A DNA stretch of 64,000 nucleotides from Octopus vulgaris (lineage: Eukaryota): assembly GCA_951406725.2 (NCBI GenBank), contig OX597823.1, forward strand, positions 77,748,001-77,812,000. Direction: 5' to 3'. The translations under genes were made by a program, and so were the position numbers. Under the pieces are notes generated by a model. The model saw only the letters and a program-made list of their open reading frames with translations, was not told the origin of the DNA and did no database searches. This document shows positions 10,822 through 62,679 of the stretch, piece by piece (the stretch's first letter is position 1; the number at the start of each line of letters is the position of its first letter).

Positions 10822-10888
10822 TCGCACCAATGGTAGAATGTCTGTCATATTTACAGAGGTGGTGGGTTCAAGTCCCTCCAACGTTTTT
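10822..10888 (+). pseudogene. tRNA-like Pol III unit (tRNA pseudogene or SINE head)
   Basis: tggtagaatg D-loop-like, tctgt/acaga stem with 7-nt loop, gtggg-ttcaagt-ccctc T-arm, T5 run after; no acceptor stem; second copy at ~11172-11225. Confidence 0.55.
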
Positions 10889-11270
10889 CTGTTCAAAGGG
10901 TATTTTAGCATAATATTTATGTATTAAAAGGTGGCCTGGTATACAAACAATTCTACTAGCTCACCACCCTACTACTACTAATAATTATAATAATATGCAC
11001 ACACACACACATTTGATATGATATGCATACATATTTGTGTATCTAAGAATCTATGGATCAGCGTATTATTAATAATCATGCTATTAACATTAGTGTATTT
11101 ATTAGTATGCAACCTAACAAGCCAGCTGAGAACTTAGAGCTAAAATCGAGCTCAACAGGATTTGAATTCAGAATGGTAGAATGTCTGTAATATTTACAGA
11201 GGGTGTGAGTTCAAGTCCTTTTAAATTTTTCTATTCAAAGGGTGTTTTAGCATAATATTTATGCATTTTA

Positions 11271-11680
11271 AGGCAGCAATCTAGCAGAAATGTTAGCACG
11301 CTGGGTAAAATGCTTAGCAGTATTTCATCTGTCTTTATGTTCTGAGTTTGAATTCCACTGAGGTTAACTTTATCTTTCATCCTTTTGGAGTCGATAAATT
11401 AAGTGCCAGTTGTGTACTTTTTTCTATTTAATGGGTGTTTTAGCATAATATTTATGTATTATAAGGCGGTGGTCTGGCAGAAATGTTAGCATGCTGGGCA
11501 AAATACTTAGCAGTATTTTGTCTGTCTTTATGTTCTGAGTTCAAATTCCACTGAGGTCAACTTTATCTTTCATCCTTTCGAGGTCAATAAAATAAGTACC
11601 AGTTGCATACTGAGGTCAATCTAATTGACTGGCTCCCTTCCCCAAAATTTCGGACCTTGTACCTAGAGTAGGAAAGAATA
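11271..11680 (+). mobile_element. Two tandem SINE family B copies (11271-11415 truncated; 11465-11680)
   Basis: ggcggtggtctggcagaaatgttagc head, gagttcaaattcc B-box, ctttcatcctttcgaggtcaataaaataagtaccag body. Confidence 0.88.
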
Positions 11681-12333: not shown

Positions 12334-13013
12334 TATATAGTTCTTTCACTTAAATCTTACCATTATTATAATTATTCTACTGTGATGAGATCTTTACAAT
12401 AATTAAACAAACAAATAAAATATATATGGCTCACAAAATGTATTGCGTGTTTCAGCTTCTTTTATTTTGGTTCCGCTAATTTCAATAGCTGATTATTATA
12501 TTTGTCTTCTGGTTGTAGTAAGCTTTGTTTTTGTTTTTTTGCCTCTACTTCTTCTTTCTAAGAAATGGGATACTATCCTATAATATTTTGGCAATAAATT
12601 TTCCCAGCACTCAAGTAACTAACTCAATTAAGAGGAAGCTTATTGCAGAAAGAGAATTTCAATGCTCTACAACAACACAGTGCTGAATTGCCAGTGTTTG
12701 ATCGATGACATTAGCTATATTACTGGTATTTCAATACAAGAACATCCGTCCAATAAAGTAGTTCACAAGATGAAGAAATACAAACTAACTTACACAAACA
12801 TGCACACAGATGTATAAGCATACATGTGTGTGCGTTGCATTATTTAACGCCAATGTTCCATACTGGCACAGGACAAACAGTTTGACAGGATCTGATGTAT
12901 CCAAGGACTGCATCGAAATCCAATGTCTACCATGGCATGATTGTTATGGCTGGCTGCCTTTCCAAACACTAACCACCTTAGAGTGTGCCCTATATACATG
13001 TATATATATATAA

Positions 13014-13073
<60 letters not shown>

Positions 13074-13075
13074 AG

Positions 13076-13172
13076 AACCAGCTACGCACTGGGGTCGATG
13101 TAATCGACTTAATTCCTTTGTCTGTCCTTGTTTGTCCCCTCTGTGTTTAGCCCCTTGTGGGTAGTAAAGAAA
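13076..13172 (+). mobile_element. 3' fragment of SINE family B
   Basis: accagctacgcactggggtcgatgtaatcgacttaat...ccccttgtgggtagtaaagaaata; also at 25050-25168. Confidence 0.85.
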
Positions 13173-13255
13173 TATATATATATACATATGCATATATATA
13201 TATATATATATATACATATAGATAAGAAAGTTTGTTTGGTAAAGCACGTGGGTGA

Positions 13256-13557
13256 ATATATAAGAAAATAGTAAAGTGTGAAAAAACGACAGAAGGCTTA
13301 AATGTTAAAAAATATATATATTTGTGTCAAAATGTCTGGAGAATATTGGAGAATATTGGAGAATAACGTCACAAGAAATTTGAAAAGCTACACGCGAAAC
13401 CGGTAATTTCTTTAAAAATTTAAAAATTATGTCATTTTAAGGAAAGGGAAAAAAAAAATTTTTCCAATATTCTCCAGACATTTTGACACAAATATATATA
13501 TTTTTTAACATTTAAGCCTTCTGTCGTTTTTTCACACTTTACTATTTTCTTATATAT
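13256..13557. mobile_element. Foldback element in (AT)n: 95-bp inverted repeats (13256-13350 / 13463-13557) around a hammerhead-containing spacer
   Basis: Arms read as exact reverse complements; flanked by AT microsatellite on both sides. Confidence 0.85.
13373..13412 (+). ncRNA. Minimal type-I hammerhead ribozyme, U3-A8 core variant
   Basis: aagaaat|TTGAAAA|gc-tacac-gc|GAAA|ccgg|TA|atttctt: 7-bp stem I, palindromic stem III ACCGGU, GUA cleavage triplet. Confidence 0.7.
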
Positions 13558-13607
13558 ACATATATATATATATTTGTACATATATATATATGTACACACA
13601 TACACAG

Positions 13608-13663
<56 letters not shown>

Positions 13664-29333: not shown

Positions 29334-30372
29334 CAAGATATCAAAGGCAGTCTCCAAACTTTTCTATCCAAAAATTTTTAAACCCACTATTTACATGCTA
29401 TTTTTAATAGCTTTATCTACTACAGTAAAAATGAAATATATACTTATATATATATATATATAGGTGGAAGCAAAATAGGTATACAAAACGGTATAAAATA
29501 ATCCAGAGAAAAAAAGAACTCAATATGATAAAATATAGTAATATCATTAAATCTATTCTAACCCGCAACTTAACAAATTGAGACAGTGTTTCATATTTTC
29601 CATCAATAAAAATATAATTCAAACTATATTACAGTTTCGTATAAAATAAAATCTATGACTAAGTATACTAATGGTATACTAATGGTATACTAATGCCTTT
29701 TGCATTAGTTGGATGAATGAGTAAAGAAAATGATATTAATTATTTTGGTATACCATTAGATGTCCAAGACTCTATGGAAATTTATAAGCTTATTAATTTT
29801 TATAGTTTACATTTATTACATAGTAAGTTGAATAATTAACAGTATGGTTTATATCAAGATGATGGCTTATTATCATTCAAAATATGAATGTCCCAGATAT
29901 AGATGAATTCAAAAAGAATTTCTTTGAGTCATTTGAAGATTACGCCTAAGAACTATATTTATGCAAATTAATACTTATATTGACAACATTATTAATGTTT
30001 ATAATTAATAGTAATAGTAAATCATCTTAAACAGTTCTCGACAGCCAATTACTTTTTTATGCGCAATTTTTTTAAATGTACTAATTGTTCATTAAATAAT
30101 TTGTCTTTCAAAATCGATGATTTATTATGCTGAAGTATTTCTTGCAACTAATTCGGTTTCTAATGACTATGTCAGATAGACAGAAAATCCAATCAATTTA
30201 AGATTTGGTCAGCACCAACTTAATCTCTGGGATCCTGAAACTTCAGTATACAACTTTGTTGAAGTTTATCAAGTTTTTAGCAACTAATAATAGTAGAAAT
30301 GATAAAATTATCTGCAAGATATTAGAATATGCTCAATTTTATCATGAAGGTAACGATGGCTATGATCTAGAT

Positions 30373-30922
30373 CAGTGCTTCTCAAAGTATCAGATGTGGC
30401 GTACCAGCAGTTTTTTTTCAATGTGCCAGGAACCAGTAATATTTCTTAGTAATATTTATTTATACCGGGTTCAGAGATTTATTATTGTTTTTAAAATATA
30501 TATTGGATGTAATAAAAGTTGGCAATTTTTTTTTATCTTTTGTAAACAGATAATACAATATTTATTTCTTTATTGCCCACAGGGGGCTAAACATAGAGGG
30601 GACAAGCAAGGACAGACAAAGGGATTAAGTGAATTACATCAACCCCAGTGCGTAACTGGTACTTATCTAATTAACCCCAAAAGGATGAAAGGCAAAGTTG
30701 ACCTCACTGGAATTTGAACTCAGAACATAACGGCTGACAAAATACCACTAGGCATTTGCCAGTATGCTAACGATTCTGCCAGCTCGCCACCCTCAAAAAA
30801 TACAATATTACATAAGCATTTTATAATGTCTTTTTCTTTTCTTGAAACTCGCCATGTACAGGCAGCTGATGACTCACAGACCAGCACCGGTCTGCGGATG
30901 ACCACCACTTTGAGTAGCACTG
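30373..30922. mobile_element. hAT (Charlie/MER5-like) MITE with nested SINE
   Basis: TIRs cagtgcttctcaaagt / actttgagtagcactg; identical 8-bp TSD atctagat at 30365-30372 and 30923-30930. Confidence 0.9.
30563..30791 (-). mobile_element. SINE family B inserted in the hAT MITE
   Basis: Reverse complement of 26799-27028. Confidence 0.9.
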
Positions 30923-32488: not shown

Positions 32489-32867
32489 GTGTATGTGTGT
32501 GTGTATGCGTGTATATCTATCTATCTATCTATCTATATGTCTATCTATCTATCTATCTATCTATATATATAGTTTATGAGTAACAATGAAGGGTGAAATT
32601 AATTAATTTGGAACAATTATCAATTACACCAAGTAGTCTTCGGCATGCAAAAGCCTCATTCGAGGAAAATTTAAGTAATACTAAGCAATTAAGGGTTTAG
32701 CAACGAATTGCCTTACCACACACCGAATTTAGAAATAGCAGTCAAAGAGATTATAGCTATTTCTTCTACTAAAAGGAGATCACAGTAAAGGCACAGCATT
32801 TGAAAGGCAAACACAAACAGGTAAAAGAGAATGAATTAACGGCAATCTATCATACAGTTTTAAGTCG

Positions 32868-32959
32868 CCTACGGACGTACGTTTCGAGATCAAGTCTTAG
32901 GAAAGCATAAGAATTAGATAACTCTACTTTACCCAGACTTCTTCTTTCATCAGCGCAGG
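32868..32959 (-). ncRNA. Type-I hammerhead ribozyme (copy 1)
   Basis: cctgcg|CTGATGA|long stem II|GAAAC-gtac-GTC|cgtagg on the minus strand. Confidence 0.78.
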
Positions 32960-33471
32960 ATACTAACAATCATGAATGATTGAATATTGAATTTTGAGAT
33001 ACTAGAAGGCACCAACTCAACTCAGTATCAGAGCGAGCTAGAAGCCACAGCTAGTATCACCAAATTCAAAGTATGAATGAAAGCTTGTGTCACCAGTCCC
33101 TTCCCACCCGCGTGTAGCCAAGACAAAGTGCTGTGGTCATTTACTGGGATGAATATGGTTTATGAGTAACAATGAAGGGTGAAATTAATTAATTTGGAAC
33201 AATTATCAATTACACCAAGTAGTCTTCGGCATGTAAAAGCCTCATTCGAGGAAAATTTAAGTAATACTAAGCAATTAAGGGTTTAGCAACGAATTGCCTT
33301 ACCACACACCGAATTTAGAAATAGCAGTCAAAGAGATTATAGCTATTTCTTCTACTAAACTTTGAATTTGGTGATACTAGCTGTGGCTTCTAGCTCGCTC
33401 TGATACTGAGTTGAGTTGGTGCCTTCTAGTATCTCAAAATTCAATATTCAATCATTCATGATTGTTAGTAT

Positions 33472-33563
33472 CCTGCGCTGATGAAAGAAGAAGTCTGGGT
33501 AAAGTAGAGTTATCTAATTCTTATGCTTTCCTAAGACTTGATCTCGAAACGTACGTCCGTAGG
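33472..33563 (+). ncRNA. Type-I hammerhead ribozyme (copy 2, inverted segment)
   Basis: Stem I cctgcg/cgtagg, CUGAUGA 33478-33484, GAAAC 33546-33550, palindromic ACGUACGU stem III, GUC site 33555-33557. Confidence 0.78.
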
Positions 33564-34821
33564 TGACTTAAAACTGTATGATAGATTGCCGTTAATTCAT
33601 TCTCTTTTACCTGTTTGTGTTTGCCTTTCAAATGCTGTGCCTTTACTGTGATCTCCCTTTTAGTAGAAGAAATAGCTATAATCTCTTTGACTGCTATTTC
33701 TAAATTCGGTGTGTGGTAAGGCAATTCGTTGCTAAACCCTTAATTGCTTAGTATCTATATATATATATATATATATATATGTTAATAAAATATATGCATA
33801 TATATAAACATATATGTACGTACCTACCTCTACATGTACATATACACGCATATATGTGTACAGGACACCAAAAAGACGTCGAACACATAGAGAGACGAAA
33901 AACATAGACACAAACCAAGGAACAAGACAGGCAAAAAAAAGAGAGATACAGGACAATAAGCACAATGAAAAATCCCCTTCTTATATATATATATGTATGT
34001 ATATATGTATGTATGTATATATATACACACACACACAAATAAAGCATTTGTGTATTAAGGCTACCATTGGTTTTGTGCTAAGAAAATATCTCAACAATTC
34101 TTCAAGCTGATCACACAGAAAAATTGGTGTTCATCTCCATTTCAGATTAAACATGAAACTAATGATAGCCTTAATACACAAAGAACCTTTATCCACCAAT
34201 GCTGTATTGAGCACACATCTTTATTGTTCAGCATTTACACTTATATATATGTTTCATATATATATATATTGATTGATTGATTGATTGATTGATTTATATG
34301 TGTGAGTGTGTTTATAACAATGTGTAAATCTTTGTGTGTGTTTGAGCCCCATAAGGAACAATTTTAGATTACACCAACTCTTTCATACTTTAAACGTATA
34401 TTGGTCTGATGTAACAGGTGCCAGAGGTTCAATAGTTAATTGGAATGCAGGATCTGTATGGAGTTAACTTCTTTTACACAAGTAGCTAAAGAGTAGAAGG
34501 GCTTCATCTGTCCTTGGTCAACAGGGGTGTCTGTGTATGACCTTCTCCCAGAAGCAGTTCTGTGACATTTAAATTATCCCATAGCAAGGAACCTTACATG
34601 TGCCACTGCTCTAGGTCAGAGTTGACCAGGTGTCAGAGTATACATATTTGTATGCTAGTGTGTATGTACATATGTACATATATGCATGCATAGATATACA
34701 TACACACACACACACACACACATAAATACATCAGTACATATATACATAATCAGATACACGTGTTGGCAATGGAAGCATATAGTATATCTAATAAACATGT
34801 CTACATATCAACCTACCTATA

Positions 34822-60890: not shown

Positions 60891-62679
60891 TTAAAGGACT
60901 GGTAGCCCGAAGTCATGAGAATGTTAATAATTTACTTATATTCTATTCAAAATTTACAACATCTTGGAATCATATGTATGTTTGTGTGTGAGTGTGTGTG
61001 TGTTATTAGTAACATTGGCACAAGGCCTGAGACTTTAACAAAATTGGATATTGGTAATTAACTTCACAAATTGGTATCAGTGAAAACATCAACAATTTTG
61101 TTTAAGTTCATATGCAGCAAGTAAATATGAACACTAATACTTTGAGCAAAGCCTCCTCTTTATTTCTATATTTTATGACAGTGCTGTTTCATGTACTCTA
61201 GGAGGAGATAATGTAAAATGAACCTCAGCAAGATTTGAACTTCAAATATAAGAGAATGTAACCGATTATTAAAAGCATTTAATCCACGGTTCCATTAATT
61301 CTGTCAGTTTTCTAATCAAGCCTATGGAATATAAGACATCTCTGAATTCAGTTCTTACATCTGTTATTACATCATTGCTTTTAATTATGCTTAATTACCT
61401 TGTTTGCTTTAGTCAAACAGAATTAGATACTAAATACACAGCAATCCTTTTCTACAGTTTAGCAATTTAGCATGGAGAGATGATGTTAAACGAATTCATT
61501 CACAAATCAGATTGTTTCAAAGAGAGTTTATTCTTATCTCAGGATTCTATAGAGCTGAATGCATGTGAGAGACAAATATCATACCAGGAAACAACGAATG
61601 TAAATGGAGGTAAATTTCCTCAGAGATAGCTAAGTTAGATAAGTTAATATGCTATCAGTAGAATTTAGCGTTAACATTTCCATCAAAGATGTTTGTACTA
61701 ACCTCTACTTGGAGGGAGAAATTGAAACTACCAAGGATTTTCAAATTTATTTGCTCGGCACTGTCATCAGATATAGAACTAAAGAGGAGGCTTTTGCTCA
61801 AAGTATCGGTGGTCATATTTACTTGCGGCATATGAACTTAAACAAAATTTTCGATGTTTTCACTGATACTAATTTAAGTTAAAGCCTTTCTGTATAACCA
61901 TAAATAGATAATCTTCTGCAGCGGAATTCTGCAGTCACTTCAAATACATAATCAGAAATATATATGCATACACACACACATATATATATTCAATTAGAGG
62001 TTAAGTTAACCTCATGAAGGGATGGTTTCATCAAAGGAAATACTGGTTCAATACATATTTGGGGGGAATTCATTTCCTTAAAATAATACGTATATATGAA
62101 AACATGTAGTTTATATTCTTTAGTATTTCAAGATATTTTTATGTAATTTTGATAAATATATCTGTTAAAATGAAATGTCAGTGTTATTTTCATTTTTGCA
62201 TAATTTAGATGACAGTTTATTCACTGCACCCTGTATATTTACATATATATAAGGTCCAACCATGCTAGCATGGAAAGCGGACGTTAAATGATGACATTTT
62301 TACATTTTACACATAAGGTAGACTCTCCTGTTGTAAATGACTGATGAAGGCTCCACACCTTCATGTCTTTACTTTGATTATTAAGTTGAGTACTGGTTTG
62401 TTGAGTAGCAATCTTGAGTAGGTTTCTGCTTTTTATTGTGGGAAGCAAACCCTACCTAGCTATGTGCTGTATATCTAATCTATCTCTCTACGTGTGTGGA
62501 GCTTATATATATCTATCTATACATATATGTTTATGGAGAGAGAGAGAGAGAGAGAGGGATACACATATATATACACACACATCAATAAGGAGAAATTTGA
62601 TTATTCTAGCGAATCACTTCGAATTCTTGATTATTTTTGAAAATAAATGGAGACACAGGCAGAGGATCGTATTTAAAGA

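What the first reader, a model, noticed from the sequence alone, without database searches (positions are those of the whole stretch)
13221..13557. Perfect 95-bp foldback enclosing a 40-nt U3-A8 hammerhead
Seen: exact inverted arms around a 112-bp spacer containing aagaaat-UUGAAAA-gc(tacac)gc-GAAA-ccgg-UA-atttctt, with a gaatattgga stutter at the left junction. Stem II has only 2 bp, so activity is uncertain. Inference: an inverted-pLTR remnant of a Penelope-like element. If transcribed, it would be a long hairpin whose loop could self-cleave after 13405.
Basis: partly seen in the sequence, partly recalled or inferred. Interest (0 to 1): 0.7.

Follow-up and report, generated by a model that had tools for sequence, protein, structure and literature searches.

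The report
Fold-back stump of Penelope-like retroelement
This 337-base hairpin-shaped insert is most likely the leftover end piece of a common jumping gene of the Penelope-like class, pasted in twice back to back, and the small self-cutting RNA motif inside it is a known kind that probably cannot cut by itself here, so the case is ordinary.

Summary
In detail: exact 95-bp arms (13256-13350, 13463-13557), a 112-bp spacer and a U3-A8 type I hammerhead motif at 13373-13412, all far beyond shuffles. Public contigs show a high-copy family in six organism labels. In the family the spacer runs into the RIGHT arm and then into 13255-13221; the stutter is not part of it. So the insert is a 195-nt direct copy (13363-13557, hammerhead sense) joined head to head, by 12 slipped bases, to a 130-nt inverted copy carrying a 35-nt tail, in (TA)n, with a probable 7-14-bp target duplication. 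That is the published anatomy of Penelope-like insertions. No link to an RT/GIY-YIG ORF could be obtained, so clade and autonomy are open. The weak point of the ribozyme is helix III (a palindrome that needs a second copy), not helix II; cleavage of the lone loop is unlikely, and the copy spans the cut site, so its template was uncut. A second, unrelated hammerhead fold-back lies at 32567-33754. Verdict: new member of a known kind, low interest.

The parts
13171..13220 (.). left (TA)n-type target microsatellite
   Evidence: sequence
13207..13220 (+). left copy of probable target-site duplication (14 nt; the last 7, 13214-13220, lie wholly outside the element on both sides)
   Evidence: identical to 13551-13564; 13 of 1120 TATATAT sites in the window are followed by this 7-mer, two of them being these flanks
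13221..13255 (-). 35-nt one-sided tail: family sequence that continues the arm beyond the short 3' end; 63% A+C in element sense, no stable hairpin
   Evidence: (contigs X2 record 9, X20 record 16, X8 record 24 and X1 record 1 run from the arm into it; 13200-13230 was skipped by the tool)
13256..13350 (-). left arm: inverted, 5'-truncated copy of the element end (130 nt with tail)
13351..13362 (+). junction filler: slipped re-copy of the last 10 nt of the left arm plus 2 nt; 13363-13365 (ATA) fits both the stutter and the direct copy
   Evidence: depth dip at 13350-59 and loose ends before 13363
13363..13557 (+). direct, 5'-truncated copy (195 nt): starts 10 nt before helix I, ends at the short 3' end without tail
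   Evidence: (X2 record 9; X8 loose end at 13350; loose ends before 13363 in X1, X2, X20)
13373..13412 (+). minimal type I hammerhead motif, U3-A8 core, helix I 7 bp, helix II 2 bp, palindromic helix III; predicted cut after A17 = 13405 (not shown to cut)
   Evidence: consensus
13399..13404 (+). helix III palindrome ACCGGU; can pair only with a second copy
13403..13477 (+). candidate 75-nt intron (donor-like GTAATT on the cleavage triplet, pyrimidine tract plus CAG); NOT supported by contigs
   Evidence: for the sites; one search lists no spliced joint
13428..13434 (+). TATGTCA motif kept in all five listed downstream variants of related families; role unexplained
   Evidence: table 7
13463..13557 (+). 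right arm = 3' part of the direct copy, exact mirror of 13256-13350
13558..13564 (+). right copy of probable target-site duplication (with 13551-13557 shared with the element end)
13558..13658 (.). right (TA)n/(CA)n target microsatellite
   Evidence: sequence

Best explanation
A dead-on-arrival insertion made by Penelope-like (PLE) RT/GIY-YIG machinery from the hammerhead-bearing end (pLTR) of an abundant family. Shown: the anatomy (direct copy 13363-13557, inverted copy plus tail 13350-13221, slipped junction, (TA)n target) and the family order hammerhead, A-tract, arm, tail. Inferred mechanism: the endonuclease nicked both strands of a (TA)n tract 7-14 nt apart; each 3'-OH primed a cDNA on uncut element RNA, one at the short start (13557, with TATATAT microhomology) and one 35 nt further 3' (13221); both cDNAs stopped early (195 and 130 nt); the shorter one slipped back 10 nt, began a second slip, and joined the other through a 3-nt match. 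The hammerhead is inherited cargo that needs a dimer, and perhaps the element's protein, to cut; at this locus it most likely does nothing.
For: Family order: X2 record 9 (186 nt) lies + on 13231-13350 and then - on 13455-13426; 5 X8 contigs leave 13350 with the reverse complement of the spacer end; summed depth at 13350-59 is 442 in X1 against 186,585 (13330-39) and 651,230 (13380-89), 1,333 in X8 against 65,879 and 92,660; loose ends before 13363 (8 contigs X1, 1 X2, 1 X20) differ from the stutter (all). Abundance: 705, 368, 47 and 7 contigs laid in X1, X8, X20, X2; 20 of 24 listed runs, 10 studies, 6 organism labels hold 0.56-0.74 of 27 words. Related families share only the hammerhead (X2 records 12, 13, 14 align on 13373/4-13404/18 out of 189, 386 and 604 nt), and the changes seen there are a 1-nt loop II deletion, C for A at position 17, and G for A at 13373 (keeps a G-U pair). 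Target duplication. Same architecture and polarity in an unrelated element at 32567-33754. Literature: adjacent inverted 5'-truncated copy, 30-40-bp tail at one end, (TA)n preference (PMC8557442); inverted pLTR, 31-bp tail, 8-10-bp duplications, microhomology junction (PMC3846280); both strands cut and extended, two internal RT starts spanning the tail, AT-rich targets, uncut RNA the main substrate (PMC11167929); U3-A8 cores and palindromic helix III in PLE hammerheads (PMC4209133).
Against: No ORF link: 0 of 148 stop-free frames (the longest 148 of 208 that passed my filter) match an RT or GIY-YIG family; a 40-aa frame from arm, tail and flank found no relative (weak); no ATG in arm or tail, whereas the tail of Pen2a_Av and PAc lies inside the ORF start. 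The hammerhead lacks the extra base between 9 and 10.1 and the long helix II of most PLE minimal hammerheads. No hairpin at the tail, unlike the AC-rich stem-loop of PAc. No listed contig bridges the stutter junction (32 pieces shown, 1108 not shown), so this exact locus is not confirmed from reads. The duplication lies in a microsatellite, where several lengths could have matched. Letters of the hammerhead are hardly more constant than the arm within the main family (0 substitutions listed in 50 nt against 3 in 120 nt).
Confidence: 0.85

Rival explanations
1. The fold-back was not made at insertion: a plain direct copy was mirrored later by replication template switching or repair, or the mirror is a long-read or assembly chimera.
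For: The arms are identical over 95 bp; the junction has a slippage stutter; no listed contig bridges the junction.
Against: The inverted copy carries 35 nt of family sequence that the direct copy lacks, so it cannot have been copied from it; the flanks are not mirror images but a direct repeat; a second element in the window has the same layout with 99.5% arms.
Confidence: 0.07
2. The locus works as a self-cleaving hairpin RNA: a transcript folds the 95-bp stem and the loop cuts itself after 13405, alone or by pairing in trans with another family transcript.
For: All core positions are present; U3-A8 and 2-bp helix II are reported in natural hammerheads and the covariation as active in vitro; two isolated 40-mers co-fold close to the double-hammerhead form (-15.5 kcal/mol; exact topology -14.1; monomer -4.0).
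Against: The monomer cannot close helix III; helix I pairing probability about 0.01 in the fold-back and in the direct copy, where 13407-13417 prefers 13435-13445. Scrambled helix III words dimerise as well or better in 4 of 5 cases, so the co-fold energy says nothing about selection. A single minimal hammerhead did not cut and dimers cut weakly; PAc needed its protein and no RNA-seq ends were found at its cut site.
Confidence: 0.05
3. A MITE or other DNA transposon with 95-bp terminal inverted repeats and a TA duplication, with a chance or captured hammerhead-like spacer.
For: Perfect inverted arms, no ORF, TA-rich target.
Against: In the family the left arm is not joined to the spacer in this orientation, and the arm continues into the tail; the arms are asymmetric by 35 nt; the duplication looks 7-14 bp long; the hammerhead is the part shared with divergent families.
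Confidence: 0.02

Closest known systems
Complex insertions of endonuclease-positive Penelope-like elements: pLTR, adjacent inverted 5'-truncated copy and tail (Craig et al. 2021, PMC8557442; Arkhipova et al. 2013, PMC3846280, e.g. Pen2a_Av)
   Same: Inverted truncated copy next to the 5' end of a direct copy, one-sided 35-nt tail, outer ends both 3' ends, microsatellite target, short duplication, microhomology at the junction.
   Different: Only 195 nt of the direct copy is present, with no ORF; no ATG in arm or tail, whereas Pen2a_Av's pLTR and tail hold the first 22 codons.
Minimal type I hammerheads of metazoan PLEs, including the U3-A8 variant (Cervera and De la Pena 2014, PMC4209133)
   Same: Type I, U3-A8 core (Schistosoma mansoni families 3 and 4 in their Fig. 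S3), G10.1-C11.1, palindromic helix III needing a dimer, U/A-rich flanks.
   Different: Helix II of 2 bp (3-8 bp in their 56 examples as I read the list), no extra base between 9 and 10.1 (also absent in their Marsupenaeus and Saccoglossus-2 rows), helix I of 7 bp, A17.
Poseidon element PAc of Anolis carolinensis (Frangieh et al. 2024, PMC11167929)
   Same: Hammerhead upstream of two 3' ends that bracket a tail; AT-rich target; template not cut at the hammerhead.
   Different: Cut site to short end 152 nt here against about 85-92 nt to the main start in PAc (from their +26 and +111-118); no stem-loop at the tail; the short end shows microhomology with the target; no ORF start seen in the hammerhead.
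Hydra, Neptune and Naiad clades as (TA)n-targeting PLEs (PMC8557442)
   Same: (TA)n or microsatellite preference; Hydra and Neptune carry hammerheads.
   Different: Clade is defined by the protein, which I do not have. Naiads lack canonical hammerheads, and short words of this element were not found in context in that paper's supplement (weak test).
Animal non-LTR retrozymes (PMC7229834; bioRxiv 10.64898/2026.07.22.740005)
   Same: Non-coding, type I hammerhead, thought to derive from PLE ends.
   Different: Retrozymes are head-to-tail tandem units of about 220-390 bp with canonical hammerheads; this is a single hammerhead in a head-to-head fold-back.

Membership tests
Endonuclease-positive Penelope-like element | ORF with telomerase-like RT and GIY-YIG endonuclease linked to the end repeat | tested here: inconclusive
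   None in the window (0 of 148 frames), as expected for a stump; no genome held; contigs cannot be fetched; protein search empty but weak
Endonuclease-positive Penelope-like element | Inverted 5'-truncated copy adjacent to the 5' end of a direct copy | tested here: met
Endonuclease-positive Penelope-like element | 30-40-bp tail at one end only | tested here: met
   35 nt, family sequence continuing the arm; its outer end is read from the window alone because skipped 13200-13230
Endonuclease-positive Penelope-like element | Type I hammerhead in the end repeat, sense towards the 3' end | tested here: met
Endonuclease-positive Penelope-like element | Short target duplication, AT-rich or microsatellite target | tested here: met
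   (TA)n on both sides; 7-14-bp direct repeat, moderate support only
Endonuclease-positive Penelope-like element | Partial tandem (direct pLTRs) in some copies | not testable with these tools
   not at this locus; other copies not available as sequence
Endonuclease-positive Penelope-like element | Retained spliceosomal intron in the end repeat (optional feature) | tested here: inconclusive
   donor- and acceptor-like sites 13403 and 13477; no spliced joint listed in two RNA-guess runs
Minimal type I hammerhead of PLEs | Core N3-U4-G5-A6-N7-N8-A9 ... G12-A13-A14-A15.1 / U16.1-H17 with 3-8 pair and G10.1-C11.1 | tested here: met
Minimal type I hammerhead of PLEs | Palindromic helix III | tested here: met
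Minimal type I hammerhead of PLEs | Extra base between 9 and 10.1 and long helix II (typical, with exceptions in the source list) | tested here: not met
Minimal type I hammerhead of PLEs | Motif kept across divergent families with pair-preserving changes | tested here: inconclusive
   motif is the only shared part in three X2 contigs; one G-U change, no double compensatory change seen
Minimal type I hammerhead of PLEs | Self-cleavage | not testable with these tools
   needs an assay; monomer fold predicted unfavourable
MITE / DNA transposon | Both arms are fixed family termini around a fixed interior, 2-bp TA duplication | tested here: not met
   left junction is not a family feature and the arm runs on into the tail
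Non-LTR retrozyme | Head-to-tail tandem units each with a hammerhead | tested here: not met
   one hammerhead of this family in 64 kb, no direct repeat of it

The most novel reading that the evidence does not exclude
In this PLE family the hammerhead's cleavage triplet doubles as a 5' splice donor (GUAAUU at 13403, acceptor at 13477, 75 nt, the length of the Drosophila virilis Penelope intron), so splicing and dimer-dependent self-cleavage are mutually exclusive fates of the element RNA, and the unspliced, uncut RNA is the one that is copied. It would tie together two unexplained PLE traits, intron retention and the hammerhead. Not excluded because only contigs of two runs guessed to be RNA were laid and most family RNA may be read-through of dead copies; against it, no spliced joint was listed and a related family has C17, which spoils the donor.
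Probability: 0.08. Interest if true: 0.6.

Novelty: new member of a known kind. Interest (0 to 1): 0.2.

Why it matters
As it stands it is one more truncated PLE end. Its modest value: at 337 bp it records a whole insertion event (two priming points 35 nt apart, a slipped head-to-head joint, a probable staggered cut), which suits tests of how PLEs build inverted repeats, a question PMC8557442 calls open; the 40-nt motif is smaller in helix II than the listed PLE hammerheads and is an easy dimer-cleavage test; and such inserts can be mistaken for MITEs by annotation pipelines (inference). I found no paper on this family in three searches, but the library lacks most subscription journals, and repeat databases were not searchable.

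Tried and rejected
No whole genome is held. Rfam: 0 matches at gathering score in 64 kb; 33 weak matches in 13150-13650, none a hammerhead. No RNA holder listed on record; the two runs laid as RNA are guesses, so nothing is claimed on expression. Pattern scan of metagenome contigs: 17 matches, 37-64% GC, helix I of 0-4 bp, one 33-nt BLAST hit, treated as chance; viral contigs 0. Intron prediction, written down before the test: no spliced joint listed; the only joint listed (X20, 13350 to 13421, opposite strands) fits an unspliced copy with a diverged A-tract region; 1 of 17 similar donor words in the window has such an acceptor, namely this one. Co-fold energy as evidence for selection: rejected by the scramble control. 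Stem-loop at the tail: none. Distal helix I between upstream ACATA and downstream TATGT: possible in some listed variants, broken in others, not claimed. ORF start in the repeat: all three frames are open over the last 25-35 codons, so openness is uninformative; protein search empty. Words of the element in the supplement of PMC8557442: 0, 1 (unrelated context) and 0 for three 10-mers; only the first two places of each term were seen and line breaks can hide words. PMC5850863 is not held. Earlier-findings look-ups by sequence and place were empty. Summed depth was used only for the shape of the dip, not as copy number.

Full report
Observation. One maximal exact inverted pair lies at 13256-13350 and 13463-13557 (95 bp, spacer 112), and the hammerhead-like 40-mer lies at 13373-13412 with A17 at 13405. 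The longest exact non-simple inverted repeat in 30 locally shuffled windows was 30 bp (mean 17.4). A descriptor scan gave 1 hit in 64 kb against a shuffle mean of 0.22; a relaxed version gave 3 hits against 0.06, and 0 of 200 shuffles had a hit with helix I of at least 6 bp and a palindrome of at least 4 nt. Rfam does not recognise the motif. The window is AT-rich, full of microsatellites and without a recognisable protein domain in 148 of 208 filtered frames; it looks to me like an octopus genome, which is recall and comes from no call. No genome is held.

It belongs to a family. Twenty of 24 listed public runs, from 10 studies and six organism labels, hold 0.56-0.74 of the 27 sampled words. 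I laid four of them on 13200-13470: 705, 7, 47 and 368 contigs aligned in X1, X2, X20 and X8. All are contigs, X2 and X20 are only guessed to be RNA, and summed depth is no copy number, so I use them for order and shape only.

The family order fixes the anatomy. X2 record 9 lies on + over 13231-13350 and continues on the opposite strand over 13455-13426; five X8 contigs leave 13350 with the reverse complement of the spacer's end. Summed depth falls at the stutter (13350-59: 442 in X1 against 186,585 at 13330-39 and 651,230 at 13380-89; 1,333 in X8 against 65,879 and 92,660). Loose ends before 13363 (8 contigs in X1, 1 in X2, 1 in X20) carry other letters than the stutter. So in the family the order is hammerhead, A-tract, arm, then 13255-13221. 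At this locus a direct copy of 195 nt (13363-13557, + strand) is joined head to head to an inverted copy of 130 nt (13350-13221, - strand) that carries 35 more bases of the family at its outer end. Between them are 12 bases that repeat the end of the inverted copy, and 3 bases that fit both sides. Outside, 13207-13220 equals 13551-13564; seven of these bases lie beyond the element on both sides, and only 13 of 1120 TATATAT sites in the window (these two included) are followed by that 7-mer. Because several lengths could have matched in a microsatellite, I count this as moderate support for a 7-14-bp target duplication. No listed contig bridges the stutter (32 pieces shown, 1108 not), so the locus itself is not confirmed from reads, and the tool skipped 13200-13230, so the tail's outer end rests on the window.

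The hammerhead. The core is complete, with U3-A8, G10.1-C11.1 and a palindromic helix III word. Three X2 contigs of 189, 386 and 604 nt align only over the motif, which suggests that it is what divergent families keep; the changes listed there are a 1-nt deletion in loop II (555 of 582 depth in X2, 232 of 502 in X20, under 2% in X1 and X8), C at position 17 (8 contigs in X1) and G at 13373, which keeps a G-U pair. No double compensatory change was seen, and within the main family the motif is hardly more constant than the arm. The real limit is helix III, which would close a 2-nt loop. In the fold-back RNA helix I has a pairing probability near 0.01, its 3' strand preferring a downstream hairpin, and the window holds no second copy of the family. 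Two isolated 40-mers co-fold near the double-hammerhead form, but four of five scrambled helix III words do as well or better, so that energy is no evidence. PMC4209133 (parts 1-2 of 4 and supplement parts 1-2 of 3) found single minimal PLE hammerheads inactive and dimers weak; PMC11167929 (parts 1-2 of 4) found that the PAc hammerhead needs the protein and is not needed for insertion. The direct copy here starts 43 nt upstream of the cut site, so its template had not been cut there (or was multimeric or circular).

Mechanism, inferred. Staggered nicks in (TA)n give two 3'-OH ends; each primes reverse transcription on element RNA, at two starts 35 nt apart; both cDNAs stop early and are joined by slippage and a 3-nt match. 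This follows PAc, which cuts and extends both strands of AT-rich DNA and starts at two internal sites that bracket the tail. It departs from PAc in showing no stem-loop at the tail (63% A+C) and microhomology at the short start. Zero differences in 95 bp bounds the divergence of the arms only at roughly 3%, so 'young' is likely but not tight.

Comparison with what is known. PMC8557442 (passages, outline, section 11, two supplement searches) describes an inverted 5'-truncated copy next to the 5' end, a 30-40-bp tail at one end and (TA)n preference in several clades. PMC3846280 (parts 1-3 of 5) shows inverted pLTRs with a 31-bp tail, 8-10-bp duplications and a microhomology junction. The locus works like these in every respect tested. 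Strict membership needs the RT and GIY-YIG ORF, which I could not reach: none in the window, no relative of one 40-residue frame (weak), no ATG in arm or tail, 17 chance-like pattern hits in metagenomes and none in viral contigs. Clade and autonomy are therefore open; the template may be an autonomous element or a non-coding derivative. MITE and retrozyme tests fail. PMC13282606 (passages; supplement listed, not read) counts 31 recently active Penelope-like families in Octopus vulgaris and does not mention ribozymes; PMC7229834 (passages) and bioRxiv 10.64898/2026.07.22.740005 (part 1 of 5; supplements not seen) cover retrozymes. Unseen supplements and repeat libraries may already hold this family.

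An internal parallel. At 32567-33754 an unrelated element (no shared sequence) has 396-bp arms at 99.5%, a 207-bp partial tandem, a 111-nt one-sided extension, microsatellite flanks and a C3-G8 hammerhead in each arm with the same polarity. Such fold-backs are thus routine in this genome. Earlier notes of this scan report the same pattern in other genomes; they are unchecked leads and I read them after forming this view.

The boldest reading left. The cleavage triplet sits on a donor-like word (13403) with an acceptor-like site at 13477, 75 nt, the length given for the Drosophila virilis Penelope intron. Splicing would delete the cut site. I wrote the prediction down first; one search listed no spliced joint and showed a C17 family with a poor donor, and a five-term paper search for such an overlap found nothing. 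I give it 0.08.

Verdict. Observation confirmed; PLE-type origin 0.85; self-cleaving lone loop unlikely; new member of a known kind; interest 0.2.

Noticed in passing
window 32567-33754: Second, unrelated fold-back element in (TA)n/(TCTA)n: arms 32678-33072 / 33359-33754 (99.5%), partial tandem 32567-32773 = 33153-33359, one-sided extension of 111 nt (longer than the usual 30-40-nt tail), C3-G8 type I hammerheads with long helix II at 33472-33563 (+) and 32868-32959 (-).
   Followed up: partly
window 13428-13434: TATGTCA recurs in all five listed downstream variants of related families although the letters around it differ; its ATG meets a stop at codon 4 to 9 in each (table 7; 59 rows not shown). 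Role unexplained.
   Followed up: partly
run X2 record 14 and run X20, aligned on window 13374-13418: A related family with a loop II deletion and different flanks dominates in the two runs guessed to be RNA (one 604-nt contig, depth 555, in X2) but is under 2% of depth in X1 and X8; it may be the expressed family, but run type is only a guess.
   Followed up: no
window 13221-13230 and 13547-13557: Both 3' ends of the element fall just after the same word, TTTCTTAT, in element sense, which may mark the two priming points.
   Followed up: no
window 13073-13170: A fragment of another dispersed repeat abuts the left microsatellite; the same translated word appears in frames at 12990-13304 and 30202-30717. 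Looks like a SINE piece (recalled, not tested).
   Followed up: no
window 10829-11611: Diverged tandem of about 193 bp (11226-11418 and 11419-11611, 87%) with further partial copies upstream.
   Followed up: no
window 61058-61882: Inverted pair 61058-61184 / 61758-61882 at 89% over 128 bp; no hammerhead hit there.
   Followed up: no
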